Below are positions 3,299-57,299 of a DNA stretch of 64,000 nucleotides, piece after piece. The stretch lies in the IMG/VR virus record IMGVR_UViG_3300023218_000062; one strand, written 5' to 3'. The stretch is from a virus. Its lineage: Duplodnaviria; Caudoviricetes. The translations under genes and the position numbers were made by a program. The notes under the pieces were generated by a model. The model made no database searches. It saw only the letters and a program-made list of their open reading frames with translations, and had not been told where the DNA came from. Positions within the stretch are counted from its first letter, which is position 1, and every line of letters begins with the position of its first letter.

Positions 3299-4243
3299 AT
3301 GGATGAGTTGCTGCAAAAACTAGTCGAAAGTGAGCTTCTGACCGAAGATACCAAAAAACAACTGGAAGAAACTCTATCGCGGAAGATGGAAGAAAAAGCT
3401 CAGCAAATAAGAGAAGAGGTCGAGGCTGAAGTTAAGACCGACCTCGCTGAAAAATATGCACAGGATAAAGAAGAGTTGGTTGAAGCAATGGACACCGCTC
3501 TGGAAAAAGCTCTAAATGAAGAAATAGCAGAACTTAAAGAAGATATAGAACGGTTCAGAGATCTGGAAGCTGAGTATGCTGAGAAGTTAGTGGAAACTCG
3601 TCAGCAGATGGCCGAAAATGTAAAAAATGATATGACCAAGCTCTTAGAAGGATTGGACGCTTATGTTGATCAAAGATTGCATGCAGAGCTTGACGAACTC
3701 AGGGAATCAATTGAAGATGTTCGTAAAGAAAATCATGGGCGTAAGATTCTAGAAACAATCGGTGAAGAATACCGAAGAATGTTTACTGAAGAAGATGACT
3801 ATGAACAGAAAGTGCTGGAAAAAGAAGAGGCCTTAAACAAAGTTAACGAACAGCTTAAAGAAGCAAAAGATAGATTAAGATCAGTTGAACGTGAGCAGAA
3901 GATGGAAGATGTACTTGAAAGTTTATCTGGTCAGAAAAGAGAAGTTATGGCTGCAATTCTGCAAGGTATTCCAACAGAACGCCTTGATGAAGCGTACCGC
4001 CGTTACATTGGTAAAGTTTTAAGAGAATCTAATGAAGATAGTTCGGAGAAGGATAATTCAGTACTTGCCGAAGGAAAAAACGAGGAAAACACGGATAGTG
4101 ATGATTTTGTAGTAGCAACCGGTGATTCTAAAGTTGTTGTTGAAGATGTTGACACAATAACAGAATCGGTTGATGGCTTCCCAAATTATAAACTTGATGA
4201 GGTAACTCGTAACCGTTTGAAAATACTGAGTGGTATCAGTTAA
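3299..4243 (+). CDS. gp22: Prohead core scaffold protein (T4 gp22-like)
   Basis: Acidic coiled coil between protease and capsid genes; strong RBS gaggag; TAAATA at 3248-3253; LxE-type cleavage motifs and C-terminal RLKILSGI. Confidence 0.85.
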   Translation: MDELLQKLVESELLTEDTKKQLEETLSRKMEEKAQQIREEVEAEVKTDLAEKYAQDKEELVEAMDTALEKALNEEIAELKEDIERFRDLEAEYAEKLVETRQQMAENVKNDMTKLLEGLDAYVDQRLHAELDELRESIEDVRKENHGRKILETIGEEYRRMFTEEDDYEQKVLEKEEALNKVNEQLKEAKDRLRSVEREQKMEDVLESLSGQKREVMAAILQGIPTERLDEAYRRYIGKVLRESNEDSSEKDNSVLAEGKNEENTDSDDFVVATGDSKVVVEDVDTITESVDGFPNYKLDEVTRNRLKILSGIS

Positions 4244-4301: not shown

Positions 4302-5741
4302 ATGGACGATAAACAAACACTAGTAGAAAATTGGAATGAGACCAAGGATGTCCTTCTTAGCGGGCTTAAGCCTTCACAGAAAGAAATCGTTGGGCCTCTT
4401 CTAGAAAACCAGCGCAAGCATATGTTGAATGAATCTGCTGCACAGGGTGCGGTACAATCTCATGATGTAGCAAACTTTCGTAAAACATTGCTTCCGATGA
4501 TTCGCCGTATTATTCCCGGAACAATCGGGAGTGAAATCGTAGGTCTTCAGCCTATGTCAGGACCTGTATCACTTGTTTATACGCTGAGATACAAGTACGA
4601 AGAAGATATGACTCATAATCCTGATCGTTCACCATTTGGTGGATTTGATATCGAACCGGGGGATGAAGCTTTTGGAAATGACAAGTTGATTCGTCAGTTC
4701 TATGCTGGACAGGTTGCAGAATCAGGTACACCATTTGAAGGTATTGATCAAACTGCAGGGGCTTCTGGTATTGCAGGGCCAAATGCTGCTGAAGCTGATA
4801 TTGACGCTGATACAGCCGATGGTCAGGGTTGGCACTCTGAAGAAGACGTAACCACATATGAAACTGGAACTACACTATTCGGTGAGCCAGTTGGTGGATC
4901 GTTGAAGGGTGGTTCTGGTAGCTTGATAGAAGGTTCAGGCGGACGTAAGATGACCCTAGAGATCATCAACCAAGCCGTTGAAGCTCATACCCGTAAGCTA
5001 CAAGCAGGTTGGACAATGGAAGCAATGCAGGACATGGATAGCCAGCATGGTATCGATGTTGAGTCAGAGCTTACCAAGGCACTATCTGCTGAAATCGTGC
5101 AGGAAATTGATGCTGAAATCATCACTGACCTTCTTTCACTAGCAGGAACAGTCAGAACATATGATTTTAACGCAACAGGTGGTTCTAATGGTTATGCACC
5201 AGCCTTCGTTGGTGACCGTTTCGCTAACCTAGGCGTTCGTATCAACGAAGTTGCAAATGAGATTGGCCGTAAGACACGTCGTGGAGCGGGTAACTATATC
5301 GTTGTATCACCAATGATTGTTTCTGTTCTACAGTCTGCAGCTAAAGCAGTATTCGCTCCAGCAGTTGAAGGTAGCTTCAAAGGACCCAACAACACATATC
5401 TAGCCGGTATTCTAAACGGTCAGATTAAGGTCTACAGCTACTTGTGGAACGCTGCACAGCCAACTGATGGTGAAGTATTTAGTGCAGGTCAGGGTCTTGG
5501 AAATGATCAGGTCCTAGTTGGATACAAGGGTGGTAACGGTGAAGTAGATGCCGGTTACTGGTATGCACCTTACATCCCACTGATGAGTACAGGCGTTGTT
5601 GTTAACCCAGTTACCTTCCAGCCTGTAATGAGTCTAATGACCCGTTACGGTAAGGTTGCTCTAACTGACACGACAACATCTCTCGGGAATTCTGCGGACT
5701 ACTATGGTAAAATTAATATTACTAACCTAGCATTCATTTAA
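4302..5741 (+). CDS. gp23: Major capsid protein (T4 gp23-like)
   Basis: LLPMIRRIIP, IVGLQPMSGP, RKLQAGWTMEAMQD, GHGIDVESEL-like, YAPYIPL and MTRYG motifs. Confidence 0.97.
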   Translation: MDDKQTLVENWNETKDVLLSGLKPSQKEIVGPLLENQRKHMLNESAAQGAVQSHDVANFRKTLLPMIRRIIPGTIGSEIVGLQPMSGPVSLVYTLRYKYEEDMTHNPDRSPFGGFDIEPGDEAFGNDKLIRQFYAGQVAESGTPFEGIDQTAGASGIAGPNAAEADIDADTADGQGWHSEEDVTTYETGTTLFGEPVGGSLKGGSGSLIEGSGGRKMTLEIINQAVEAHTRKLQAGWTMEAMQDMDSQHGIDVESELTKALSAEIVQEIDAEIITDLLSLAGTVRTYDFNATGGSNGYAPAFVGDRFANLGVRINEVANEIGRKTRRGAGNYIVVSPMIVSVLQSAAKAVFAPAVEGSFKGPNNTYLAGILNGQIKVYSYLWNAAQPTDGEVFSAGQGLGNDQVLVGYKGGNGEVDAGYWYAPYIPLMSTGVVVNPVTFQPVMSLMTRYGKVALTDTTTSLGNSADYYGKINITNLAFI

Positions 5742-31142: not shown

Positions 31143-31715
31143 ATGGGAAGAAGCATATACTATGAAAAATTAAATTTTAGGGATTTATGGATTGACGGGA
31201 AAAGCTCCATAAATATAAATGGGCTGTATGATAAAATTTTGACAGGAGATTTAAATTTTTTTGGCTCTGATGTTGTGTCAGAAAACGCCAAACAAGAAAT
31301 TATTAGGTTTGCTTCGTTGTCAAATATAGAAATGCCTAAAGTTACTGTAAAATCTAGTCCCACCAATAATTCTCTTAACACTAGTTTTGCCATTCCGAAA
31401 AGTTATATGGATGCAGATATTCAAAAAATAATCATGCAAAGTTTTAAAAAACGGCATAATATTTCTAATATGAGTAATAAAGAAAAAGAAAAAAGATTAT
31501 ATAGAATTGCAGATGAAATCGAAAAATATAACGAGTTAGGTATGTATGATGTACTTCGATGTATGATATATATAATTGATACTTTTAAAGAGAATAATGT
31601 AATATGGGGCCCCGGAAGAGGGAGTGCATGTTGTTCGTATATATTATATTTGTTAGAAGTACATGATATAGATAGTTTTTATTTTGAATTAGATATTAAG
31701 GAATTCTTGAGGTAA
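31143..31715 (+). CDS. DNA polymerase III alpha-like fragment 1 (GRGS-motif half)
   Basis: RL..IADEIE...KENNVIWGPGRGSACCSYILYLLEVHDIDS..FELDIKEFLR aligns with DnaE GPGRGS...DLDPL.FDLLFERFL. Confidence 0.8.
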   Translation: MGRSIYYEKLNFRDLWIDGKSSININGLYDKILTGDLNFFGSDVVSENAKQEIIRFASLSNIEMPKVTVKSSPTNNSLNTSFAIPKSYMDADIQKIIMQSFKKRHNISNMSNKEKEKRLYRIADEIEKYNELGMYDVLRCMIYIIDTFKENNVIWGPGRGSACCSYILYLLEVHDIDSFYFELDIKEFLR

Positions 31716-40448: not shown

Positions 40449-41203
40449 AGAAAATACAAAATGTGAAAACACGTCAATCTAGTAAACAAGAAAATGATAA
40501 AATACTGGCTCTTAAATCTAAAAAAAAATATTATCTTAAGAATACTGACTGGACCCAAATAAATGATGTAAGAATTAAAAACAATGATGAAATAAAGAAA
40601 TGGCGTAAACGTTTAAGAGATTTTGACATAGATGACCTCTCATATGAACAGTCTGAAAAAGAATTAGAAAAAATTATATCTGAGATGCCAATGCCAATTA
40701 TAGGAAAAAAGGTTGACACTGTTGACAAAGAAAAAGAGTACAATAGTGACGATATATCTACTGTATATAAAGAATTAAAAACGATAAAGGAGAATATATC
40801 TACCATATATAAAGAACTGGATAACGATAATGAAATAATAGAATTAGAAGAACAGGAATTTAGAAATGTAATCTTAAAATTGTTTACTGAAGATGCCAAT
40901 AAATTATTAATGGAAAATGGAATATTGGAATATAACCTGATGACTATTTTATTGGAAGAAGCGATAGATAGACAATTTTCAGATGATAGCTATGGACCAT
41001 TATTAGATCAATATTTGGAATCTTTAAATTCGTTATCGTTGGAAGAAATTATTAGCAATTGCAGGAGTTTCTTCAAAAATATTAATGGTTTGTATACTAA
41101 CATAGCTAAACAACGAGCAAGGATGTATAATATGTCTATAGACTCTTTAAATAATTGGTGTGTAGAAAATGGACATAGATATAGATGTTACAACAACGAC
41201 TAA
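40445..41203 (+). CDS. Tail fibre assembly chaperone-like protein
   Basis: L.NTDWTQ+.D......W..R..LRD motif of phage tail assembly chaperones. Confidence 0.5.
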
Positions 41204-41750
41204 CCCGCCTGATATATTCAATAATATAACATCTGCTTCTATAGTAGAAAATGGAGAACTAAAGCGACATAATGTTGGATATTATTTTCAGAATATACCA
41301 ATAGATCCTCACACGGGATTATCAGCAATACCATATAAAAAGGCATTAGATTTTGATTATTTTAAAATTGATATAATTCACTTGAAACTTTTGGATTATT
41401 TTGATTCAAAAAAAGAATTAATACAGTACATGCACCGCAAACCAAAATGGGAAATGTTATGGGATAGAAATATAGTTCCTAAACTATTTCATTTTTCAAA
41501 ATCATATGAATTGCTAAATAAAATTAGGCCCAAGAGTATATTAGAAATATCTGATTGTTTAGCTCTTATACGGCCCGGCAAAAGAAAATTAATAAATAGG
41601 TATTTGAAAGAGAAAAATAAAAATAAAATTAGGATAGAATTATATAAGAAAGAGCAGGCAAGCGATCTTCGAAAATCGCACGCTTTGCCATATGCATATT
41701 TAATAATTGCACAATTAAATTTAATAAGGGATGGTAAATATGAAACTTAA
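41169..41750 (+). CDS. DNA polymerase III alpha-like fragment 2 (catalytic-aspartate half)
   Basis: Starts MDIDID (DxD), H.+G, FKIDII (third Asp), LALIRPG, KSHA..YA. Confidence 0.8.
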   Translation: MDIDIDVTTTTNPPDIFNNITSASIVENGELKRHNVGYYFQNIPIDPHTGLSAIPYKKALDFDYFKIDIIHLKLLDYFDSKKELIQYMHRKPKWEMLWDRNIVPKLFHFSKSYELLNKIRPKSILEISDCLALIRPGKRKLINRYLKEKNKNKIRIELYKKEQASDLRKSHALPYAYLIIAQLNLIRDGKYET

Positions 41751-48800: not shown

Positions 48801-48869
48801 GCAGATGCTTCAGTGGGGAAGGTCTGCATTTAAATATACTTGCTTAACTATACAAGGAGGATATTTATG
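48801..48869 (+). promoter_or_regulatory. ROSE-like RNA thermometer
   Basis: 5' hairpin gcagat.cttc/gaag.gtctgc; 3' hairpin aaatat-a-CUUGCU pairing with AGGAG-g-atattt, bulged G opposite the SD, just before ATG 48867 of an Hsp20 gene. Confidence 0.7.
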
Positions 48870-49328
48870 AATGCAATAGCAAAAAGAAAAAGTGATCCAT
48901 TTGGAGTAACAAGCATAATGAGAAATGAGTTTTCCGATCCTTTCACAGGATGGATAGATGATTTTTTTAAGCACACGTTTGCTGAAAATACAGGAGTGTC
49001 TTATCCACCGTATGATATTATAAAAAAGGATTCCGGAAAATATGTACTAAACGTAGCGGTTGCCGGATTATCCAAAGACGATATTGAAACATATATTGAC
49101 AAAGATGGAAATCTGTGCATAAGTGGAGAAAAAACTGAAGACACTGAGGAATATATGTATCAGGGCATTGCTAAAAGAAAATTTAATTTAAAATTTAGAA
49201 TGCCACGAGATTCTGAAGTTGATAGTTGCAAACTCGAAGATGGCATGCTACAATTAGAAATCTTAGCTCGAGAAGAGGAAAATAGTAGGAAATCTATTCC
49301 TATTAATGTAAATCATCGGAGCGGCTGA
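48867..49328 (+). CDS. Small heat shock protein (Hsp20/IbpA family)
   Basis: YPPYDI, Y.L.+A+AG, Y+YQGIA.R.F...F, LEDG+L.+. Confidence 0.9.
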   Translation: MNAIAKRKSDPFGVTSIMRNEFSDPFTGWIDDFFKHTFAENTGVSYPPYDIIKKDSGKYVLNVAVAGLSKDDIETYIDKDGNLCISGEKTEDTEEYMYQGIAKRKFNLKFRMPRDSEVDSCKLEDGMLQLEILAREEENSRKSIPINVNHRSG

Positions 49329-49344
49329 AATGCCGCTCTTTTTT
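49319..49344 (+). terminator. Rho-independent terminator
   Basis: gagcggc-tgaaat-gccgctc plus T6. Confidence 0.8.
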
Positions 49345-49380
49345 ATTAAGTATGCTAAGTAATAGGCATTTAAAATTAAA

Positions 49381-49887
49381 TTGAAAAATTCCATAACCAA
49401 CGAAAATGGAGGCCCAAAATTTATAATGCTAGTAGGGTTGCCGGCATCAGGAAAAAGTACATATATTAAAAGTGTTCTGCAAAAAAATCCAGATTTCACA
49501 GTATTATCAACAGATGATTACATAGAGCATAAGGCACGAGAGCAAAAATCTACGTATAGCGAAGTGTTTCAGACGTATATTAAAGAAGCGACTAGAAATA
49601 TGTATAATGAATTACAAAGTGCATTAAAAGAGCGTAAAAATATAATATGGGACCAAACTAACCTTACTGCAAATAGTAGAAAGAAAAAGTTGGCTAACGT
49701 TCCAAATATATACTTTAAAGAAGCAATTATGTTTATAATATCAGATGATGAGCTTTTAAAAAGGGTTGCAAAAAGAAAAGAAGAAGACGGGAAGGAAATT
49801 CCTCTTCATGTATTAAGAAATATGAAGAATAATTTTGAAATACCTACAAAAGATGAAGGTTTTGATAAAATAAAAGTAATGACATAA
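49381..49887 (+). CDS. P-loop kinase (AAA_33 / polynucleotide kinase-like)
   Basis: MLVGLPASGKST, LSTDD, IIWDQTNL...R, EIP.K.EGF. Confidence 0.75.
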   Translation: MKNSITNENGGPKFIMLVGLPASGKSTYIKSVLQKNPDFTVLSTDDYIEHKAREQKSTYSEVFQTYIKEATRNMYNELQSALKERKNIIWDQTNLTANSRKKKLANVPNIYFKEAIMFIISDDELLKRVAKRKEEDGKEIPLHVLRNMKNNFEIPTKDEGFDKIKVMT

Positions 49888-49900
49888 GGAAAATTAAAAA

Positions 49901-50515
49901 ATGAATATACAAAGGGTTGAGGATTTGCCATTGATATTACAGTTAAATGCTGGTGGCGAACCGGTTAGTTGGATTAATTATGAAAAATCTGCATATTTTT
50001 ATGCTAAAAACCGTGTTTTGTGGGATTTGGGTGAGCATGAAGTAATGCTTCGTGGTGGAACTAATGCCAAAACTGGTGAGCAATCAAAACTTTTGATGCA
50101 GACTATCATAGCGGTAAAATGCAACCATAGCCCTAGAAAGTTTAGAAGTGGTGTTCCTTCATTGACAAATAAGACTCTTTTCATAAGGGATCATAATGTA
50201 TGTGGATACTGTGGAAACCAATTTGGTAAATCCGAATTAACTAGGGACCATGTTGTTCCTCGTTCAAAAGGTGGTGAAGATAGTTGGACCAATTTGGTTA
50301 CAGCTTGTAAAAAGTGTAACCATAAAAAGGCTGCTAAGACACCTGCTGACGCCAATATGCCTTTGTTGTATGTTCCATATGTTCCGAACTATAACGAACA
50401 TTTAATTTTACAGAATAGAAGAATTTTGTTTGATCAAATGGAATATTTGAAAAAGGGAATATCAAAGGAAAGCCGTATTCATCAAATGATTAAGGATAAT
50501 TATTTTTTTCATTAA
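49901..50515 (+). CDS. HNH endonuclease (McrA-like)
   Basis: CGYCG...LTRDHVVPRSKGG.DSW.NLV.AC..CN..K. Confidence 0.85.
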   Translation: MNIQRVEDLPLILQLNAGGEPVSWINYEKSAYFYAKNRVLWDLGEHEVMLRGGTNAKTGEQSKLLMQTIIAVKCNHSPRKFRSGVPSLTNKTLFIRDHNVCGYCGNQFGKSELTRDHVVPRSKGGEDSWTNLVTACKKCNHKKAAKTPADANMPLLYVPYVPNYNEHLILQNRRILFDQMEYLKKGISKESRIHQMIKDNYFFH

Positions 50516-50534
50516 AAATGATTTAATTTGATGT

Positions 50535-50572
50535 AAAACGGGGGGGGGGGGGGGCATGACCCCCCCCCGTTT
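50535..50572. terminator. Bidirectional terminator with G15/C9 stem between convergent genes
   Basis: aaaac-G15-catga-C9-gttt. Confidence 0.65.
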
Positions 50573-50574
50573 CT

Positions 50575-50865
50575 TTAGTAATAATAGTAACTTAATTGTG
50601 TATTTGGTTTCATATTCAGTTCTGCATAGCGGATACACGCTCTAAAGGCATCTCTGTCCTTGTCAGATCCAATGAGAACGATCTTATTACTTTCTTTCAG
50701 CATTGGTATGAATACATTTAAGAAGTTCCTTAGAGGAGCGTTAGGAGCGTTAAATAAAGTTCCATTTCTATACTCAATAGGACTTCGAGTATCAATAACA
50801 GAATACCCTCTTTTTTCTACTAATGATTTCAAAAAATTTATATCATTTATTTTCTTTGCGAACAT
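50575..50865 (-). CDS. Rhodanese-like domain protein, no active-site Cys visible
   Basis: VIDTRSPIEY..G.+.NA.N.PL; active-site loop reads LIGSDKDRD. Confidence 0.55.
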   Translation of the reverse strand: MFAKKINDINFLKSLVEKRGYSVIDTRSPIEYRNGTLFNAPNAPLRNFLNVFIPMLKESNKIVLIGSDKDRDAFRACIRYAELNMKPNTQLSYYYY

Positions 50866-50936
50866 TTTAATTCTCCTTGTAAAGTGTCAACTTAAACACT
50901 ATAACACACTAACTTAATATTTGCAATATTGCATTT

Positions 50937-51518
50937 TTAGCTTTTTCCCTCAAGGATTTCTCGTTCTCTATCAGTGTTTCTATTCTTGGCGGATTCTTGG
51001 CTAAATTTATCACCGAAACGAGCTTTAAGCTTGTTAATAATTCTTTCCCACTGTTCATCCCATTCCACACCTAGTGCATCTGTCCCAATAGCCTTATACC
51101 AGTCGCCGTCAAACATTTCTTCGGCTACATTCACTACATCAAACTCTCCAGTATCAAGAGCATGCTTGAGGGCTTCACCTAGTTCACCAGCTTCTGTCAT
51201 AATACCAATAATAGCATGACATATTCTGGTATCCAGATAATCAACAGTTTCTTCCTGTGTAATCCCTTCCATGTTTTGTATTTGAATAATTTGATGTAAA
51301 TTACCTGACAATTCATTAATGTTTTGGAGTCTCGCAGGTAATTCATTTTTTAATTTTTCCGAGTCTCCATAGAAGGCTTGCTTCTTAATGGCATCTAACA
51401 TTTCAGAAACTTCGATAAACATCAAAGTCACTATACCTAGATAGTGACGGTTGATGGCTAGGGAATCTACAAGCGATTCAGTTTTCTTAGCATTTTCAAT
51501 AAATTCTTTATGATCCAT
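50937..51518 (-). CDS. MazG-like nucleotide pyrophosphohydrolase
   Basis: HA..G+.TEAGEL.+A.K, EE+.D..WY, N.+KL..RF.DKFS. Confidence 0.75.
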   Translation of the reverse strand: MDHKEFIENAKKTESLVDSLAINRHYLGIVTLMFIEVSEMLDAIKKQAFYGDSEKLKNELPARLQNINELSGNLHQIIQIQNMEGITQEETVDYLDTRICHAIIGIMTEAGELGEALKHALDTGEFDVVNVAEEMFDGDWYKAIGTDALGVEWDEQWERIINKLKARFGDKFSQESAKNRNTDREREILEGKS

Positions 51519-51585
51519 AATAAAAAATCACCTTTTTAGCTTGATTAAATATGAATCTATATTATTAATCCTTGAAGCTGTTAAG

Positions 51586-52452
51586 TCAACTGTCTTCTAC
51601 ACATTTAATCCATGATTTTACAAAATCACTTCTGACTATATCATGTTTGTTGAAATGAATTACATCAAAAAATTTATTATTTTTTAATACTTCAGATAGT
51701 TTATCTAGATATGAAGAATCATGCTTTGATTTATATAAGTCACTCTGATTAGAGTCACCTGCAATAATAATTTTCGAATTGTGTCCTATTCTCGTCATAA
51801 TCGTGTTTATTTCATGGAAATTTAAATTCTGTGCTTCATCTACCACTACCACAGTATCATCCCAAGTCTGACCTCGTAGAAAACTTGTTGGCATGAAATT
51901 TACTTTACCAAATTGTTTAAATTTGTTATATGACGTAGGCATATCGAATAAAAATGAAAATAAATCTCTATAGGGTGCTTCATATATCTCGATTTTTTCT
52001 TCTAATCCGCCGGGAAGATACCCCACCTCACGCGTTGGTACTACACTTCTAACTATGTTTATGTTTTTATAGGGTTGCTGTTTATCTAACATATCATTTA
52101 GGGCTAAGTATAGAGCAAGCATCGTCTTACCGGTACCTGAGCTACCGGTGGCTAAAATTGAAGAACCAGAAAAATATGATTTCATCATTTGCTCTTGGGA
52201 TGTCGTGAGCGGTTTAATGGCTTTAAGATCATGTTTTGATAAACTTTTATTTTTATGATGTTCCATTCTAGCTACATTATCTTCGTGTATTTCTTTCCTT
52301 TTAGCTTTTTTCATTATTGTTTTTTCTCCTTTGTGGGTTAATAAAAATGAAATATTATGGGGGGATGTAGATGGAGAGGGAATTTGCGAACTATAATCTG
52401 AAACTTTAGTATTAGCGCTAAAAAACATATAGCTGCGCATTGTCTTCATCAT
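51586..52452 (-). CDS. phoH: PhoH-family ATPase (start may be an internal ATG)
   Basis: KPLT..Q, GSSGTGKT, RS.VP...+G+LPG, FLRG.T, +DEAQN, TR+G...K++..GD..Q. Confidence 0.9.
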   Translation of the reverse strand: MMKTMRSYMFFSANTKVSDYSSQIPSPSTSPHNISFLLTHKGEKTIMKKAKRKEIHEDNVARMEHHKNKSLSKHDLKAIKPLTTSQEQMMKSYFSGSSILATGSSGTGKTMLALYLALNDMLDKQQPYKNINIVRSVVPTREVGYLPGGLEEKIEIYEAPYRDLFSFLFDMPTSYNKFKQFGKVNFMPTSFLRGQTWDDTVVVVDEAQNLNFHEINTIMTRIGHNSKIIIAGDSNQSDLYKSKHDSSYLDKLSEVLKNNKFFDVIHFNKHDIVRSDFVKSWIKCVEDS

Positions 52453-52491
52453 AATTTATTTATACATACTTCTAGGGATAACGGAAAATGT

Positions 52492-52689
52492 ATGTCAGAA
52501 CAAATAGATGCTTGCGTTTATAATGGTATAGAGTATATAATAACAGGAAGATCAGCCGTAAAGAAACTTGGTAATAAAACTCTAGTAGAATTGAGACCAA
52601 AATTTTCAGGAGGATTTAAGGATGAACTCAACATATGGGTTTCTCCTTCGGAATTATATCAAATACAAGAGGAAATAGAGAATGAATAA
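52492..52689 (+). CDS. Hypothetical protein
   Basis: 65-aa ORF coupled to DHFR. Confidence 0.5.
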   Translation: MSEQIDACVYNGIEYIITGRSAVKKLGNKTLVELRPKFSGGFKDELNIWVSPSELYQIQEEIENE

Positions 52690-53236
52690 CACACATGTTA
52701 GTGCAATAGTTGCAATGGATATTCATAATGGAATAGGGAAAGATGGGAGGATTCCGTGGTATATTCCCGAAGATTTTAAACATTTTAAAGAATATACGAA
52801 AAGAAAAACGTGTCTTATGGGAAGGCGCACATATGAAGATATACTTTCATATAAAAAGAATTCTGAAGGTGATTTTCTTCCACGGCGTGATTGTGTAGTC
52901 TTAACTACAGACCCTACCACATATACATTTTTTGATAAAAATACATATAGTTCCATAATTTTCGTTAATAAAAATATGGATGGAATACGTGAAGATATAC
53001 AACAGGGGTTGATGGGTGATTCAGTATGTATAATTGGTGGAGCATCTTTATTTGAGGAATTCGTAGATATTTATGATGAGATATCAATTACAGAAATATC
53101 TAAAGATTTTGAATGTGACACGTTCGTAAATCGAGAAGAACTTGTTTCTAATATGACAACATATCAATATGAGCCGTTAGATACAAACAAAGATTATGAA
53201 GTTAGTTTATTTTTATACAGAAAAGGGCTATTTTGA
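52682..53236 (+). CDS. folA: Dihydrofolate reductase
   Basis: IVA.D..NGIG..G.IPW..PED..HFK, MGR.T+E, LP.R..+VL, IIGG..+, CD.F. Confidence 0.9.
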   Translation: MNNTHVSAIVAMDIHNGIGKDGRIPWYIPEDFKHFKEYTKRKTCLMGRRTYEDILSYKKNSEGDFLPRRDCVVLTTDPTTYTFFDKNTYSSIIFVNKNMDGIREDIQQGLMGDSVCIIGGASLFEEFVDIYDEISITEISKDFECDTFVNREELVSNMTTYQYEPLDTNKDYEVSLFLYRKGLF

Positions 53237-53502
53237 AATCAAAAACAATATATGATAGTATGAAAAAATTTGCAAGAAAACTTGGTGATGAAAATCTAAC
53301 GGTTTCTCTTGCTATATGTGAAAATGAAGCATATATATCAGTTTCTTGCCATAGCTCTCGGAAACTTAAATTCGACCACGGTGGGCTGCAGAGAACCGCA
53401 AAAATAGATTTAGAGGATATGGGCAGAAAAATTAATGATATACTGGGCGAATTAATCGATAAATACAAAAAACACTTAGTACCGAGAGACGAGGAAAAAT
53501 AG
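53233..53502 (+). CDS. Hypothetical protein
   Basis: 89 aa, TTGA overlap. Confidence 0.5.
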   Translation: MKSKTIYDSMKKFARKLGDENLTVSLAICENEAYISVSCHSSRKLKFDHGGLQRTAKIDLEDMGRKINDILGELIDKYKKHLVPRDEEK

Positions 53503-54048
53503 ATGCTTCTTAAAGAATTGAAGAGATACCCTATGCGCCCAGTTGATGATGAAAATACTGAATATGGTGTCAATGCTGGAAAATATGTTGGTGTCAGATT
53601 TACACCAGAGACTAAACAAACTCTTTCAGATATAATTCATAAAGAAAAGGTACCAAATTCCATAGATATTGAAAAACTTCATAGTACAGTGGCATACAGT
53701 AAAGGAAGTAACATTCCGGGATATGAAGTTTCTGGAGAGTTTGAAGAGCCAATACGAGGGGAAATAAAAGAGTTTGATATATTTCCTAGTCAAGATGGTT
53801 GTAATTGTTTGGTAGCTAAACTGAATTGCCCAGAACTTGATGACTTACATAATCAAACTATGGAACATGGTGCAACATATGATTATGACGAATACATTCC
53901 CCATGTGACTCTTTCATATGATGCAGGAGACTGGTCTAAAGATGATTTAAATAAATTGACTAAAAAGTACAAGGGCACTAAAATCGACATCAGTGAGGAA
54001 TATGAAACTGAAATAGAAGAGGATTTTGGTAAGAGTTCTTCTGTTTAA
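53503..54048 (+). CDS. acb1: Anti-CBASS 2H phosphodiesterase Acb1 (T4 gp57B-like)
   Basis: YV.+.F...T, VPN.+..EKLHSTV.YS, GAT.DYD.Y.PH+TLSY match T4 57B/Acb1 HxT/HxS motifs. Confidence 0.8.
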   Translation: MLLKELKRYPMRPVDDENTEYGVNAGKYVGVRFTPETKQTLSDIIHKEKVPNSIDIEKLHSTVAYSKGSNIPGYEVSGEFEEPIRGEIKEFDIFPSQDGCNCLVAKLNCPELDDLHNQTMEHGATYDYDEYIPHVTLSYDAGDWSKDDLNKLTKKYKGTKIDISEEYETEIEEDFGKSSSV

Positions 54049-54054
54049 AGGTTC

Positions 54055-54083
54055 TTGACATTGTGAAATATGTTATGTACAAT
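54055..54083 (+). promoter_or_regulatory. sigma70-like promoter for ligase
   Basis: TTGACA-N17-TACAAT. Confidence 0.7.
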
Positions 54084-54111
54084 TATCTCTATTAAATATT
54101 GGAGAACAATT

Positions 54112-55977
54112 GTGAATACAGATTCTGAGAAAATTCAAGATCTTAAAAAATTTGATGAAGCATATTTTCAGGGAAGCCCGATTATCCCTGACGTACAATA
54201 CGATAAATTAAAAAAAGAATTACATAAAAAATATCCAAATAACCCATACTTTTTAGAGGTCGGGGCTGCGCCTAAAGGGGGGAAAATCGATCTTCCATAT
54301 CCTATGGGAAGTTTAAATCAAGTTTATGAAAACGAAGTACAGAAATGGATAGAAAAATACAATTTAGAATCTGAAAGAATTGTAATAACTGAAAAACTTG
54401 ATGGTGTAAGTGTATTATTGATTTACAATGACGGTAAATTTAAACATGCTTATACTAGAGGGGACGGCAGAAAGGGTGAAGATATTACACACCATATCAA
54501 AAACGTGCCTTCAGTTGTGCAAGACGTATCTTCTCATGATGTAGATTATCTTGCGGTAAGAGCAGAAGTCATCATGAAGAATAATACTTTCGTAAAATAT
54601 TCTAGAAAGTACAAGAACCCTAGAAATACTGTTGCAGGAACGTTGAACAGGAAAAAGTCTGACACCAAATTATTGAAAGATGTAGATGTGGTAGCGTATG
54701 AAATTATTGACAGTACCGGATTGGATTCTGACAACAAACTGGACAATTTAAAATCATTGAAGAGTATGGGATTTTTGGTAGCCCGTCGCCAAATTGCATC
54801 TGGTAAAAATATTTCTGATGAAATGTTATCTGATACTCTAAAAGATTTTAAAAGTAGTGGAGACTATGAATTAGATGGAGTAGTAGTAACAGTAAATGAT
54901 TATTCTAATTTTGAAAACGTTTCAAAATCATCATCATTGAATCCTGAGCATTCTGTTAAATTTAAAGTTTTGGATGGGTATTCTGTAATGGAAGCTGATG
55001 TAGTTGATGTTCACTGGAAAGTATCCAAGACTGGATTTTATAAACCTAGGGTGGAAATTAGACCGATAGAACTTATGGGTTCTACTATAACATATGCAAC
55101 AGGGTTTAATGCTAAGTATATCCATGAAAATAGAATTGGACCGGGTGCAAAGATTTTACTAACCAAGGCAGGAAGTGTAATACCATATATAATTTCGGTA
55201 TTGAAAGATAGTAATCCTAAAATGCCAGATGCCGAGTGGGATTGGGATGAAAATAAAGTAGAAGCTGTTATTAAAGGAAGTTATGAACAAACATTAATGC
55301 AAGTAGTTCATTTTTTTAAGACTCTTGGTGTAGAGAATGCTCAAGAAACCTCCATTAAGAAAGTTGTAGAAGATCAAAGTCTAGAAGGAAAGTCATTCTC
55401 TACTATTGTTTATGAACTGATATGCATGTTTGACATAGAATGGAAACGGGTCTTGGGAGAAAACGGAATAAAGGTTTATGATAGTTTACATAAAAAACTG
55501 TCAACATTAAAAGAAGAAACTCTATTAGGTGCAACACCCTTTTTCGGGAGGGGGTTTGGTGTAAGAAAGTCTAAGAAGATATTAGAACAAATGTCGTTTG
55601 ATGAATTCAAGAATGCCACACTCAGCCAAATTGAAAACATAGGGGGATTTGATAAAACATCAGCAGACATTTATAATGGTATAAAAGACTTTAATAATTT
55701 CTTTAAAAGTATAGAAGAAGTTATAACTTTTGAGGAAAAAGATCAAGTTGATAATACATTAGAAGGCGAAAAAATCGTTATGACAGGATTCCGTGATGCA
55801 GATTTACAAGAAAAAATAGAATCTAGGGGTGGAAAAGTATCATCTGGAGTATCTAAAAAAACGACAATGGTTATTGCCGCAGACGTTGGTTCTACTAGTG
55901 GAAAAGTAAAAAAGGCTAAAGAGCTAGGAGTCCCGGTAATGTCACAAAGAGAGTTTAGTTTCCAATATATAAAATAA
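54112..55977 (+). CDS. ligA: NAD-dependent DNA ligase
   Basis: Y..G.P++.D..YD, EKLDG, TRGDG..GED+T, NPRN.+AG, ELDG+V, C-terminal BRCT (TGFR..L...IE..GG.V.S.VSKKT); GTG start. Confidence 0.92.
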   Translation: MNTDSEKIQDLKKFDEAYFQGSPIIPDVQYDKLKKELHKKYPNNPYFLEVGAAPKGGKIDLPYPMGSLNQVYENEVQKWIEKYNLESERIVITEKLDGVSVLLIYNDGKFKHAYTRGDGRKGEDITHHIKNVPSVVQDVSSHDVDYLAVRAEVIMKNNTFVKYSRKYKNPRNTVAGTLNRKKSDTKLLKDVDVVAYEIIDSTGLDSDNKLDNLKSLKSMGFLVARRQIASGKNISDEMLSDTLKDFKSSGDYELDGVVVTVNDYSNFENVSKSSSLNPEHSVKFKVLDGYSVMEADVVDVHWKVSKTGFYKPRVEIRPIELMGSTITYATGFNAKYIHENRIGPGAKILLTKAGSVIPYIISVLKDSNPKMPDAEWDWDENKVEAVIKGSYEQTLMQVVHFFKTLGVENAQETSIKKVVEDQSLEGKSFSTIVYELICMFDIEWKRVLGENGIKVYDSLHKKLSTLKEETLLGATPFFGRGFGVRKSKKILEQMSFDEFKNATLSQIENIGGFDKTSADIYNGIKDFNNFFKSIEEVITFEEKDQVDNTLEGEKIVMTGFRDADLQEKIESRGGKVSSGVSKKTTMVIAADVGSTSGKVKKAKELGVPVMSQREFSFQYIK

Positions 55978-56009
55978 TAAATACATCCACAGTTAAGAAT
56001 GGAGAGCTT

Positions 56010-56699
56010 GTGGAAACAGAAAATGCGATACTCGCCAGTTTAGGGACAGAAACAAATAAGATAAAACACTATACACAAATTGTAAATACTAATATTCATC
56101 ACTTCTATTTTTATGGTGAAATCGAAGATAATATGGATCGCTATTCAGATTTTATTAATATCGTTAAAACTTCATCTGAAAATGATGTAATATACATTTA
56201 TGTAAATAGTGAGGGTGGTAGTATGAGGATGGCTTTACAAATAGTTAATTCTATGCGAGCATCAAATGCTAGAATAATTACTTGTTTAGATGGGGAGGCC
56301 ATGTCAGCCGCAACCATGATATTTCTTGCTGGTGAAGAGTATGTAGTAAACCCAAATTGTACTTTTATGATACACACATATAGCGGTGGAATGCGAGGAA
56401 AAGGAAATGAACTCTTATCACAGTTAGAACATGTTCATGCAAATGTGAAGAAGGTATTAAGAAATTTTTATTCTAAAATTTTAACTGATGATGAACTTGA
56501 ACAGGTTTCTAATGGCCGAGATATATGGATGGATTCTGATGAATTGATAGAAAGATTAGACAAAGGTAATGGTAACGTAAATTCAGATGAACTTGAACTA
56601 AACTTTCCTGTCGATAATACTGTATCTGATCCGGTAGAATCTAAAAAGAAAACTGCTAAAAAAAACTACACTAAAAAGAAAACTACTAAAAAGGATTGA
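56010..56699 (+). CDS. clpP: ClpP-like protease
   Basis: YVNS.GG, catalytic Ser in AMSAATMI, His in FMIH. Confidence 0.8.
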   Translation: METENAILASLGTETNKIKHYTQIVNTNIHHFYFYGEIEDNMDRYSDFINIVKTSSENDVIYIYVNSEGGSMRMALQIVNSMRASNARIITCLDGEAMSAATMIFLAGEEYVVNPNCTFMIHTYSGGMRGKGNELLSQLEHVHANVKKVLRNFYSKILTDDELEQVSNGRDIWMDSDELIERLDKGNGNVNSDELELNFPVDNTVSDPVESKKKTAKKNYTKKKTTKKD

Positions 56700-56724
56700 C
56701 AAAATTCCTAAATAGTGACATAAT
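56696..56724 (+). promoter_or_regulatory. sigma70-like promoter for tmRNA locus
   Basis: TTGACA (56696-56701)-N17-CATAAT (56719-56724). Confidence 0.7.
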
Positions 56725-56730
56725 GTGAAA

Positions 56731-57250
56731 GCGTTGCAGGGTGAGGTTAAAACCCTCTCCAAAGCCACAATACATTAGAAGTAACCTAGGCTCGGCTTCT
56801 GTGGCTTTCTGAGGCTTATAGGATGAATCAGAAGTGGCTTTTTGGGGAGAGTAATAAAATTGTTAAGAAATATTTAAAGAATTCGATGATATCGATTGTA
56901 AGCATGACGGACGGGAGTTCGAATCTCCCCTACTCCACCAAAAGTGGATCAATAAGTGCCAGTCGAGGGAAGATCAGGTATCTTTCCAGTATAGCAAACA
57001 AAAAAGCCTAAGACGAGAGAGGTAATGCGTCAGCAATCCCGGAAACGGGGCAATGATTGGTCCACTTCTGATGGGGTAGTACTTGGTTTCGACGGTGTGA
57101 CTGAAGATCGATGGAGAATCGTCAAGAAAGACGCAAAAATCACTTAAAGTAAGTGCAAATGATGATATATTTGCACCGGAAGCACTAGCTGCGTAAGTCC
57201 GGTTGAGGTTTGGGTGGCTCCCCCTCATTACCCAATGAGCCGCCATTTAA
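56731..57250 (+). ncRNA. ssrA: Circularly permuted (two-piece) tmRNA; acceptor piece ends 56940, coding piece starts 57073; tag ANDDIFAPEALAA (57155-57196)
   Basis: T-arm gggag-ttcgaat-ctccc and CTACTCC-A-CCA (to 56940) precede GGGGTAG...TTCGAC (57073); 7-bp acceptor stem with G3:U70; gatcgat/atcgatt P2 helix; tag frame ends LAA-stop; outer ends approximate. Confidence 0.92.
56941..57072 (+). other. 132-nt structured intervening segment of permuted tmRNA
   Basis: Closing helix aagtggatcaat/attggtccactt; hairpins gggaagat/atctttcc, gacg/cgtc, cccg-gaaa-cggg. Confidence 0.75.
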
Positions 57251-57252
57251 GG

Positions 57253-57299
57253 GGCAGGGTGGAAACACCTTGCCTTTTTTAATGCTTTTGTGATATAAT
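57253..57299 (+). terminator. Terminator after tmRNA, overlapped by extended -10 promoter for downstream genes
   Basis: ggcagggtg-gaaa-caccttgcc + T6; TGaTATAAT at 57291-57299. Confidence 0.8.

What the first reader, a model, noticed from the sequence alone, without database searches (positions are those of the whole stretch)
56731..57250. Phage-encoded circularly permuted (two-piece) tmRNA with its own degradation tag
Seen: the tRNA-like 3' end (T-arm, CCA at 56938-56940) lies upstream of the 5' end (GGGGTAG at 57073). The acceptor stem has G3:U70, the tag is ANDDIFAPEALAA, and there is a dedicated promoter and terminator. Established: permuted ssrA occurs in Alphaproteobacteria, some Betaproteobacteria and marine cyanobacteria; phage tmRNAs are mostly described as one-piece. 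Inference: the AND...LAA tag and permuted form point to an alphaproteobacterial-type origin or host. No smpB is visible in this window, so it may use host SmpB to rescue ribosomes stalled by host anti-phage RNases or tRNA nucleases.
Basis: partly seen in the sequence, partly recalled or inferred. Interest (0 to 1): 0.8.

Follow-up and report, generated by a model that had tools for sequence, protein, structure and literature searches.

The report
Phage two-piece tmRNA beside ClpP protease
An uncultured T4-like jumbo phage carries a complete, circularly permuted (two-piece) tmRNA gene for rescuing stalled ribosomes; phage genes of this kind are already published, but its conserved position beside a phage ClpP-type protease gene appears not to have been described.

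Summary
ARAGORN and Rfam both call a permuted tmRNA (RF04321, 97 bits against a threshold of 47).

The gene lies inside a T4-like phage genome. The locus assembles in four samples of one study and is syntenic in at least nine related uncultured phage variants. It is neither host contamination nor a relic: 25 phage homologues keep G3:U70 and fully paired stems through compensatory changes.

- Phage two-piece tmRNAs are already published (Buchholz 2022 counted 53 two-piece structures in public phage genomes).
- The nearest Rfam subtype is beta_tmRNA, not alpha.
- The cultured relative XacN1 infects a Xanthomonas (gammaproteobacterial) host and carries the same kind of gene.
- No SmpB or ClpX was found among 50 window ORFs. 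Eight related phage genomes have no SmpB, and the five searched have no ClpX-type ATPase above cut-off, so host factors are needed.

Three features go beyond the finding:
- The tmRNA is conserved next to a catalytically intact ClpP-family protease (14 of 14 clade loci; 38 % of an independent phage tmRNA sample).
- The 132-nt intervening segment is unusually conserved (the scan flagged it separately on this same stretch, e1-5341814).
- The window has a unique 150-nt leader insertion.

Verdict: a new member of a known kind, of moderate interest.

The parts
56010..56699 (+). ClpP-family serine protease gene (229 aa) with a Lys-rich C-terminal tail, directly upstream of the tmRNA
   Evidence: Pfam CLP_protease 76.8 bits and phrog_1827 'ATP-dependent protease' 182 bits. 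Ser99, His122 and Asp171 align to the ClpP triad and are invariant in 13 homologues. It is below the NCBIfam cut-offs for true ClpP and for the ClpP-like head-maturation protease. The phage has a separate T4 gp21-type prohead protease at 220-849.
56696..56724 (+). Sigma-70-type promoter TTGACA-N17-CATAAT with TG extension, overlapping the ClpP stop codon
   Evidence: 11 of 12 matches. It is the only perfect TTGACA-N16-18-YAWAAT site in 64 kb. Relatives have equivalent promoters abutting the acceptor piece.
56731..56878 (+). Leader of about 150 nt between the promoter and the acceptor piece; part of an insertion (56696-56850 in alignment A1) found only in this phage
   Evidence: Absent from all five aligned relatives. 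No paralogue in the window or in fetched loci. Not significantly structured (z = -0.37). No Rfam match. Present in all four samples; four non-compensatory SNPs in the variant sample.
56880..56940 (+). Acceptor piece: 3' strand of P2, T-arm (56913-56929), 3' acceptor strand (56930-56936), ACCA (56937-56940)
   Evidence: covariance-model alignment. Covariation across 25 phage homologues.
56941..57072 (+). Intervening segment (IVS), removed on maturation; forms a helix that extends the acceptor stem plus internal hairpins
   Evidence: Precursor fold -55.6 kcal/mol, z = -4.7. 64-92 % identical in four relatives, as conserved as the mature parts. The consensus fold has 7 pairs with compensatory changes.
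57073..57281 (+). Coding piece: 5' acceptor strand GGGGTAG (57073-57079), D-loop analogue, 5' strand of P2, hairpin 57120-57133, tag frame, pseudoknot, terminator
57155..57196 (+). Tag reading frame GCA...GCG TAA, encoding ANDDIFAPEALAA plus stop
   Evidence: Identical in L329. In relatives the tags are 13-18 aa, all starting A(A)ND or AVND. Six of the seven distinct tags end in LAA (five ALAA, one RLAA) with an in-frame stop; L336, not called by ARAGORN, reads ...SIAA.
57205..57244 (+). Post-tag H-type pseudoknot: GAGG (57205-57208) pairs with CCTC (57223-57226); GGTGGCTC (57213-57220) pairs with GAGCCGCC (57237-57244)
   Evidence: Read. The second stem appears in the MFE fold and in the beta_tmRNA alignment. 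Compensatory changes are visible in L329, L327, L330 and L331.
57253..57280 (+). Intrinsic terminator: 9-bp stem, GAAA loop, six T
   Evidence: Different hairpins plus T-runs sit at the same place in relatives.

Best explanation
This is a functional phage ssrA gene of the circularly permuted type. It belongs to a large lineage of two-piece tmRNAs carried by aquatic T4-like and jumbo myophages.

Inferred mechanism:
1. Host RNA polymerase transcribes a precursor of about 550 nt from the strong sigma-70-type promoter at 56696-56724 to the terminator at 57253-57280.
2. The intervening segment folds as an extension of the acceptor stem. tRNA-processing enzymes cut at G57073 (RNase P) and trim to CCA at 56940.
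3. This releases an acceptor piece of about 61 nt (after removal of the leader) and a coding piece of about 205 nt. The two pieces stay paired through the acceptor stem and P2.
4. Host AlaRS charges the RNA through G3:U70. Host SmpB and EF-Tu deliver it to ribosomes stalled on broken or non-stop mRNAs.
5. Translation resumes at GCA 57155 and appends ANDDIFAPEALAA.
6. The C-terminal ALAA degron sends the product to Clp-type proteolysis.

The phage supplies only the RNA and, from the gene immediately upstream, a catalytically intact ClpP-family peptidase. It relies on the host for SmpB, AlaRS and the unfoldase (ClpX or ClpA). The likely benefit is to keep ribosomes recycling and to clear and recycle truncated proteins while the phage or host defences degrade mRNA and tRNA.

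Shown here: the gene anatomy, conservation, covariation, synteny, and the absence of smpB and clpX from what was searched. Inferred: processing sites, charging, tagging, and the functional coupling to the phage ClpP.
For: - Two independent detectors call it: ARAGORN tmRNA* and RF04321 at 97.4 bits, full length.
- All defining elements are intact.
- Across 25 phage homologues G3:U70 is universal. There are 10 distinct T-stems and about 15 distinct acceptor stems, all fully paired.
- The tags vary from 13 to 18 aa in the clade. All start A(A)ND or AVND, and six of seven distinct tags end in LAA with an in-frame stop.
- The post-tag pseudoknot and the terminator are kept through compensatory changes.
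- The precursor helix is highly stable (z = -4.7).
- The context is phage on both sides: gp23, gp21, gp32, UvsX, clamp loader, ligase and primase.
- The locus assembles in four samples.
- Synteny DHFR-Acb1-ligase-ClpP-tmRNA-primase, or most of it, holds in 13 of 14 relatives' loci with ClpP 51-86 % identical; in L340 the tmRNA lies upstream of ClpP.
- No SmpB or ClpX-type ATPase among 50 window ORFs. No SmpB in eight related phage genomes, and no AAA_2 match above cut-off in the five searched.
- The ClpP triad is invariant.
- ClpP linkage: 15 of 80 loci found through ClpP have a permuted tmRNA within 3 kb. From the tmRNA side, 15 of 39 tmRNA loci with enough flank have a co-oriented ClpP-like gene within 3 kb.
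- In the cultured relatives XacN1, Xoo-sp13 and RAS14, ligase-ClpP-primase is contiguous. The tmRNA therefore became adjacent to ClpP separately in the window's clade, and on the opposite side from the other group.
Against: - There is no expression, processing, charging or tagging data. The phage is uncultured.
- The window's score against the clade-specific beta_tmRNA model is below that model's threshold (69.9 against 84). It is a divergent lineage, so compatibility with an unknown host's SmpB and AlaRS is assumed.
- The 150-nt leader would have to be removed or tolerated, and no relative has it.
- The ClpP link is not universal. In G002, G003 and XacN1 the tmRNA lies far from ClpP, and 62 % of sampled tmRNA loci show no ClpP within 3 kb.
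- Much of the adjacency may be inherited synteny rather than repeated selection.
- The protease is below the NCBIfam cut-offs for genuine ClpP, and its ability to dock ClpX is untested.
Confidence: 0.78

Rival explanations
1. Decoy or inhibitor. The RNA mainly titrates host SmpB (or AlaRS/EF-Tu) to shut down host trans-translation, rather than performing tagging itself. This was proposed for the tRNA-like-domain-only molecule of mycobacteriophage DS6A.
For: The phage lineage encodes no SmpB, so any phage tmRNA competes with the host tmRNA for it. Hudson et al. 2014 (PMC4131195) note that a TLD-only molecule strongly inhibits tmRNA. The strong promoter would give high copy number.
Against: A decoy needs only the tRNA-like domain. 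Here the resume codon, the in-frame tag with an ALAA end and stop, the post-tag pseudoknot and P2 are all conserved, with covariation and despite changes in tag length.
Confidence: 0.08
2. Sensor or regulator. The tmRNA is used to sense host translational stress or to tune the abundance of particular phage or host proteins, controlling timing (for example of lysis) rather than rescuing ribosomes in bulk.
For: Al-Shayeb et al. 2020 (PMC7162821) mention phage use of tmRNA to sense host state. The tags in this clade are longer and more variable than the 10-aa tags of the larger phage group, which could mean specialised recognition.
Against: No specific target or regulatory partner is visible. The gene sits among DNA-metabolism and stress genes rather than lysis genes. 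The anatomy is that of a canonical rescue tmRNA.
Confidence: 0.08
3. Non-functional passenger: a host ssrA captured by imprecise excision or recombination and decaying, or a remnant attachment site.
For: tmRNA genes are common integration sites, and prophages carry ssrA fragments (discussed in PMC9004378). The window-specific leader insertion shows that the locus tolerates insertions.
Against: The gene is complete. It is conserved in more than 25 phage loci with compensatory changes. No integrase lies nearby in a T4-like lytic genome. In the variant sample the mature parts carry 2 SNPs in about 270 nt, while the first 300 nt of the neighbouring coding sequence carry over a dozen.
Confidence: 0.04
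4. Host contamination or a chimeric assembly placed a bacterial ssrA inside a phage contig.
For: None beyond the general risk that comes with metagenome assemblies.
Against: An independent Logan contig has the identical gene order. Contigs from four samples cover the locus, and in two of them a single contig spans the whole 1.2-kb stretch. The same arrangement occurs in at least nine distinct related phage variants from unrelated studies.
Confidence: 0.01

Closest known systems
Two-piece ssrA of marine T4-like phages: Methylophilales phage Melnitz, Pelagibacter phage Mosig and relatives (Buchholz et al. 2022, PMC9004378)
   Same: A circularly permuted tmRNA gene in a lytic T4-like aquatic myophage, behind an early-type promoter. 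Presence in the phage group is common but not universal. It is found by ARAGORN as tmRNA*.
   Different: Melnitz's gene is reported as alphaproteobacterial-type, carries a glutamine riboswitch in its 3' domain, and sits upstream of the late-transcription coactivator. The window's gene is nearest to the beta model, has no riboswitch, sits between ClpP and primase, and has a long conserved intervening segment. I could not score Melnitz itself with the same models.
Betaproteobacterial two-piece tmRNA (Rfam RF01850; lineage of Sharkady and Williams 2004, as cited in PMC9004378 and PMC11915505)
   Same: Same gene order (acceptor piece, IVS, coding piece). It is the best-matching clade-specific model over its full length. 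The first post-tag helix aligns. The AND...ALAA style of tag is shared.
   Different: The window scores 69.9 bits, below the 84-bit gathering score. The IVS is 132 nt against a few tens in the model. The last helix of the model is not matched. The carrier is a phage. No close bacterial relative was found.
Unannotated permuted tmRNA of Xanthomonas jumbo phage XacN1 (AP018399.1, 37231-37530 and 356026-356325)
   Same: XacN1 is the closest cultured phage (major capsid 66 % identical). Its tmRNA scores RF04321 123 bits and beta_tmRNA 107.8 bits, with tag ANANTFDYALAA. The genome has no SmpB and shares the ligase-ClpP-primase backbone.
   Different: XacN1's tmRNA lies among tRNA genes, in two copies about 319 kb apart near the two ends of the record, next to a GOLLD RNA and not beside ClpP. 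The GenBank record has no feature at that position.
One-piece phage tmRNAs: cluster C mycobacteriophages (Bxz1 and others) and Bacillus phage G (PMC4131195, PMC12484599)
   Same: A phage-borne ssrA without phage SmpB in most cases. Phage G also encodes ClpP (and ClpX).
   Different: They have the standard, non-permuted gene form. In phage G, ClpP/ClpX (ps159-160) and the tmRNA (between ps444 and ps445) are far apart.

Membership tests
tmRNA (ssrA), permuted / two-piece form | Score above the curated threshold of the family covariance model | tested here: met
   RF04321 at 97.4 bits against a gathering score of 47, model positions 1-213 of 213. ARAGORN calls tmRNA*.
tmRNA (ssrA), permuted / two-piece form | tRNA-like domain: 7-bp acceptor stem, T-arm, discriminator A plus CCA | tested here: met
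   GGGGTAG pairs with CTACTCC; GGAGG-type T-arm GGGAG-TTCGAAT-CTCCC; ACCA at 56937-56940. Fully paired in 25 of 25 homologues with many compensatory variants.
tmRNA (ssrA), permuted / two-piece form | G3:U70 alanine identity pair | tested here: met
   G57075 pairs with T56934. Conserved in all 25 phage homologues; two script mis-picks were corrected by eye.
tmRNA (ssrA), permuted / two-piece form | Circular permutation: the 3' half of the tRNA-like domain is encoded upstream of the 5' half, separated by an intervening segment | tested here: met
   CCA at 56940, then 132 nt, then G1 at 57073. The IVS extends the acceptor helix.
tmRNA (ssrA), permuted / two-piece form | Tag reading frame starting at an Ala resume codon and ending in a hydrophobic Ala-rich degron plus stop | tested here: met
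   GCA at 57155 through TAA at 57196, encoding ANDDIFAPEALAA. The frame and the degron end are kept across tags of 13-18 aa in relatives.
tmRNA (ssrA), permuted / two-piece form | Inter-piece helix P2 and at least one pseudoknot | tested here: met
   P2 is aligned by the covariance model with two non-canonical pairs. Outer P2 pairs co-vary in L331, L338 and L339 (read). The post-tag pseudoknot has compensatory changes.
tmRNA (ssrA), permuted / two-piece form | Maturation into two RNA pieces, alanylation, SmpB binding, tagging activity | not testable with these tools
   No RNA data could be laid on the locus; this needs experiments.
tmRNA-SmpB system (complete, self-sufficient) | A dedicated SmpB partner encoded by the same genome | tested here: not met
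   No PF01668 hit among 50 window ORFs or in eight related phage genomes. The rest of this phage's genome could not be searched.
Rfam beta_tmRNA (RF01850) subtype | Score at or above the gathering score of 84 bits | tested here: not met
   The window scores 69.9 bits, full length, and this is the best family of clan CL00001. Relatives L331, L338, L339 and XacN1 do pass at 99.6-116.7 bits. The window is beta-like but divergent.
Rfam alpha_tmRNA (RF01849) subtype | Best-scoring clade-specific model | tested here: not met
   It was out-competed by beta_tmRNA within the clan for the window and for all but one scored relative. Only L328 gave a partial alpha match (51.5 bits, tRNA-like domain only).
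ClpP peptidase family (MEROPS S14 / Pfam PF00574) | Family profile above threshold and a Ser-His-Asp triad | tested here: met
   PF00574 at 76.8 bits against 20.2. S99, H122 and D171 align to the ClpP triad and are invariant in 13 homologues.
Bona fide ClpP (ClpX/ClpA-dependent proteolytic core) | Equivalog-level similarity; tetradecamer formation; docking of the ClpX IGF loops | tested here: inconclusive
   NCBIfam ClpP equivalogs score 35-59 bits, far below their cut-offs. The best model is 'ClpP-related head maturation protease' at 81 bits against 120. Oligomer state and ClpX docking were not tested. The phage has a separate gp21-type prohead protease.

The most novel reading that the evidence does not exclude
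The phage tmRNA and the adjacent ClpP-family protease form a co-inherited 'tag-and-degrade' module. The phage installs its own degron writer (tmRNA) and its own proteolytic chamber, using only the host's SmpB and unfoldase. This redirects protein quality control and amino-acid recycling during infection. In the window's subclade, the unusually conserved 132-nt intervening segment would be released by processing as a third, separately functional small RNA.
Probability: 0.25. Interest if true: 0.7.

Novelty: new member of a known kind. Interest (0 to 1): 0.42.

Why it matters
The headline of the finding, a two-piece tmRNA in a phage, is already in the literature, so on its own it is a well-documented further example rather than a discovery.

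What the analysis adds:
- This kind of tmRNA forms a very large phage-borne lineage. More than 120 IMG/VR contigs share one 16-nt motif of it. It appears to be inherited among phages whatever form the host's own tmRNA takes, so it should not be used naively to infer hosts.
- None of the genomes I could search in this group encodes SmpB. That defines exactly which host factors the phage depends on.
- The RNA is repeatedly found beside a catalytically intact ClpP-family protease, in two different gene orders. I found no paper describing this link. It gives a concrete, testable hypothesis about how large phages take over ribosome rescue and proteolysis.
- XacN1 is a cultured relative in which these questions could be tested. 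Its tmRNA is not annotated in the public record.

Tried and rejected
- blastn of the locus against 50,697 GenBank phage records found no match.
- An exact 34-nt pattern was not found in IMG/VR, so the window's own contig is not held there.
- No whole genome is held for the window. The long metagenome contigs of relatives cannot be searched as records. smpB and clpX could therefore be excluded only for the window and for eight related phage genomes.
- The primase as an anchor found no relatives in IMG/VR.
- My single metagenome scan and single genome scan used a pattern (GGGGTAG-N3-4-TGGTTTCGAC) that proved too permissive. It returned mostly standard tmRNAs and chance matches, with only one permuted gene (L173) and nothing close to the window. 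The betaproteobacterial and alphaproteobacterial loci I picked from it held no tmRNA. No bacterial donor or nearest bacterial relative was identified, and no tree was built.
- Sharkady and Williams 2004 (PMC516066) is not held. The features of the three bacterial lineages are cited second-hand.
- No RNA holder is listed for the locus, so expression and processing could not be examined.
- The terminator scan reported none because the stem can absorb the T-run. Folding shows the hairpin.
- Leader 56731-56878: no Rfam hit, no significant fold, no paralogue, no compensatory SNPs. It remains unexplained.
- The 62-aa ORF at 56823-57011 reads through the tRNA-like domain and lacks a proper ribosome-binding site. 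I treated it as spurious.
- Scripts failed on parsing. The 'zero ClpP' output was an artefact of a missing query file and is superseded.
- I did not fold the protease or run a complex prediction. Sequence evidence already places it in the ClpP family, and a fold would not settle ClpX docking.
Full report
**1.

ARAGORN finds exactly one RNA gene in the 64-kb window: a permuted tmRNA (tmRNA*) at 56848-57287 on the + strand, with tag ANDDIFAPEALAA. Rfam's tmRNA_permuted model (RF04321) matches 56880-57196 over its full length at 97.4 bits, against a gathering score of 47 (E = 1e-17).

Reading the sequence directly gives these coordinates:
- T-arm GGGAG-TTCGAAT-CTCCC at 56913-56929.
- 3' acceptor strand CTACTCC at 56930-56936, followed by ACCA at 56937-56940.
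- 5' acceptor strand GGGGTAG, 132 nt downstream at 57073-57079. It makes seven pairs, including G3:U70.
- Tag frame from GCA 57155 to TAA 57194-57196.

The promoter TTGACA-N17-CATAAT, preceded by TG, lies at 56696-56724 (11 of 12 matches). It is the only perfect site of that type in the window. A 9-bp GC-rich hairpin with a GAAA loop and six T follows at 57253-57280. The one refinement is that 56731-56878 is not tmRNA (section 5).

**2. It is phage DNA, not contamination**

The window encodes T4-type core genes:
- major capsid gp23 (4302-5741), prohead protease gp21 (220-849), gp32, UvsX, a clamp-loader subunit and a gp41-like helicase;
- around the tmRNA: PhoH, DHFR, Acb1, NAD-dependent ligase, a ClpP-family protease and a primase.

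Earlier notes of this scan call the genome an uncultured, tRNA-rich, T4-like jumbo phage, and my Pfam results agree. An independent Logan assembly has the identical gene order. Contigs from four samples of one study cover the locus, one of them as a roughly 98 % variant. By major capsid identity, the closest cultured phages are the jumbo myophages XacN1 (66 %), Xoo-sp13, and CM1/RAS14 (about 62 %), followed by RsoM2USA and SCTP-2.

**3. The gene is conserved and under selection as a tmRNA**

The adjacent protease served as an anchor in the large protein database. I fetched 14 loci from relatives whose protease is 51-86 % identical, representing at least nine distinct variants. Every one has a permuted tmRNA beside the protease gene.

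I combined these with 14 IMG/VR phage tmRNAs and XacN1, giving 25 homologues:
- All have G3:U70.
- There are 10 different T-stems and about 15 different acceptor stems, all fully paired.

Tags in the clade run from 13 to 18 residues: ANDDIFAPEALAA, AVNDANFDQTPIALAA, AANDADFDSNANGFALAA, AANDDYFDAEPLRLAA, AANDAYFGQEMALAA and ANDDYYFDSQVALAA. Each keeps the Ala resume codon, an N-terminal A(A)ND or AVND, a C-terminal LAA and an in-frame stop. The post-tag pseudoknot and the terminator are also retained through compensatory changes. In the variant sample the mature RNA carries 2 SNPs and the IVS none, while the downstream coding gene carries many. This is the signature of a working tmRNA, not of a relic or a pure decoy.

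**4.

Phage two-piece tmRNAs are published:
- Buchholz et al. 2022 describe the two-piece ssrA of OM43 phage Melnitz. They report that 53 of 133 unique tmRNA structures in 18,146 phage genomes are two-piece, 50 of those from aquatic phages (PMC9004378).
- The 2025 tmRNA database lists 79 phage sequences and is the source of RF04321 (PMC11915505).
- Huge phages with tmRNA, and sometimes SmpB, were noted by Al-Shayeb et al. 2020.

The alphaproteobacterial inference is not supported:
- PMC11915505 recommends the three older clade-specific Rfam models for subtyping. Among them beta_tmRNA is the best for the window (69.9 bits, full length, below its 84-bit threshold).
- It is also the best for all but one scored clade locus, and it passes its threshold in L331 (100.9), L338 (99.6), L339 (116.7) and XacN1 (107.8). 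Only L328 gave a partial alpha match.
- XacN1 infects Xanthomonas citri, a gammaproteobacterium. It carries two copies of such a permuted gene about 319 kb apart, near the two ends of its record. The GenBank record has no feature there.

The permuted form therefore travels with a phage lineage. It is not a reliable indicator of the host, and I could not identify a bacterial donor.

**5. Anatomy specific to this phage**

Aligning the ClpP-to-primase intergenic regions shows that in relatives the acceptor piece starts a few bases after a promoter that abuts the ClpP stop codon. The window has an extra insertion (56696-56850 in the alignment) that leaves about 150 nt of leader (56731-56878) between its promoter and the acceptor piece. 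This leader:
- has no paralogue in the window or in fetched loci;
- has no Rfam match;
- has no significant fold (z = -0.37);
- shows four non-compensatory SNPs in the variant sample, yet is present in all four samples.

I cannot explain it. It would have to be trimmed or tolerated.

The 132-nt intervening segment folds as a long extension of the acceptor stem (z = -4.7), as expected for a precursor cut by tRNA-processing enzymes. In four relatives it is 64-92 % identical to the window's. That matches the mature parts (63-84 %) and exceeds the post-tag region (43-62 %). Its consensus fold has compensatory pairs, an invariant GACG/CGTC hairpin with a conserved 12-nt loop, and conserved single-stranded blocks. 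More distant clade members have unrelated intervening segments. With only five sequences this is suggestive, not proven. The scan flagged this same stretch as a separate finding (e1-5341814).

The gene is also mosaic. The window shares its tag and 3' end with L329 (100 % and 89 %) but its IVS with L327 (92 %). That implies recombination within the gene.

**6. Which partners the phage brings and which it borrows**

No SmpB and no ClpX-type ATPase were found among 50 Pfam-scanned window ORFs. Eight related phage genomes have no SmpB: five IMG/VR records, four of them at least 90 % complete, plus XacN1, RAS14 and Xoo-sp13. Six of the eight carry a permuted tmRNA. The five IMG/VR records have no AAA_2 match above Pfam's cut-off. 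The rest of this phage's own genome could not be searched.

The gene immediately upstream (56010-56699) encodes a ClpP-family protein:
- Its Ser99-His122-Asp171 triad aligns to solved ClpPs and is invariant in 13 homologues.
- It has a conserved Lys-rich C-terminal tail.
- It is not the head-maturation protease, because a gp21-type enzyme is present.
- It is too divergent to be called an equivalog of cellular ClpP.

**7. The ClpP link**

- Searching from the protease side, 15 of 80 IMG/VR loci with a ClpP-like gene also have a permuted tmRNA within 3 kb, mostly directly upstream.
- Searching from the tmRNA side with a 16-nt pseudoknot motif (more than 120 contigs; 56 of the 80 returned loci confirmed by ARAGORN), 15 of the 39 loci with at least 3 kb of downstream flank have a ClpP-like gene within 3 kb. 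All 17 ClpP hits are on the same strand as the tmRNA.
- In the window's clade the order is reversed (ClpP, then tmRNA). In the cultured relatives ligase-ClpP-primase is contiguous with no tmRNA between. The juxtaposition therefore arose at least twice.
- It is not universal. In G002, G003 and XacN1 the two genes are far apart.
- I found no paper describing the link.

A tag ending in ALAA is the classic ClpXP/ClpAP degron (established knowledge from E. coli). The functional reading, in which the phage supplies both the degron writer and a proteolytic chamber, is therefore attractive. It remains an inference, and I give it roughly one chance in three or four.

**8. Verdict**

- The feature is a genuine, very probably functional phage two-piece tmRNA that depends on host SmpB.
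- It is a new member of a known kind.
- Its conserved partnership with a ClpP-family protease, its unusually conserved intervening segment and its unexplained leader make it moderately interesting rather than routine.

Noticed in passing
window 56941-57072: The intervening segment of the permuted tmRNA is as conserved as the mature RNA in four relatives (64-92 % identity). It has compensatory pairs, an invariant GACG/CGTC hairpin with a conserved 12-nt loop, and conserved unpaired blocks, so it may be a functional RNA in its own right. The scan flagged it separately as e1-5341814.
   Followed up: partly
window 56731-56878: A leader of about 150 nt sits between the promoter and the acceptor piece and is absent from all relatives. 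It is unique, not significantly structured, has no Rfam match, and is fixed in all four samples. Its origin and role are unexplained.
   Followed up: partly
window 48840-56699: A cluster of stress, proteostasis and RNA-related genes lies upstream of the tmRNA: Hsp20/IbpA-like chaperone (48840-49328), AAA_33 / polynucleotide-kinase-like kinase (49381-49887), HNH endonuclease, PhoH, DHFR, Acb1 (anti-CBASS 2H phosphoesterase, 53503-54048), NAD-dependent ligase and ClpP-like protease.
   Followed up: partly
window 56580-56699 (C-terminus of the ClpP-like protein): The ClpP-like protein ends in an acidic linker followed by a Lys-rich tail (K-T/A-K-K repeats). The character of this tail is conserved in all 13 homologues aligned. 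Canonical ClpP has no such tail. Nucleic-acid binding is one possible role.
   Followed up: no
L344 1471-1891 and 2840-3253 (Xanthomonas phage XacN1, AP018399.1, about 37.2-39.0 kb; second tmRNA copy at 356026-356325): The cultured phage XacN1 has a strong permuted tmRNA (tag ANANTFDYALAA) with no feature in its GenBank record. A GOLLD RNA (227 bits) lies about 1 kb downstream, and two tRNAs with anticodon CTA (labelled tRNA-Sup in the record) lie about 1 kb upstream.
   Followed up: partly
L332-L335 near 3770-3800: In an abundant relative (its ClpP protein is indexed in 84 blocks of the contig collection) the tmRNA gene lacks the encoded CCA: the acceptor strand is followed by AAAAG instead of ACCAAAAG. 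CCA would therefore have to be added after transcription. In the same loci the Acb1 gene is called as two pieces.
   Followed up: no
window 31143-31715 and 41169-41750: Two separate short ORFs match different parts of bacterial DNA polymerase III alpha: the N-terminal NTPase domain (PF07733) and the finger domain (PF17657). They lie about 10 kb apart, which suggests a fragmented or split polymerase gene.
   Followed up: no
window 57155-57280 compared with L329 and L327: The tmRNA gene is mosaic. The tag and 3' region are 100 % and 89 % identical to L329, but the IVS is 92 % identical to L327, whose tag is only 59 % identical. This indicates recombination within the gene among co-occurring phages; several related tmRNA variants are present in the same samples.
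   Followed up: partly
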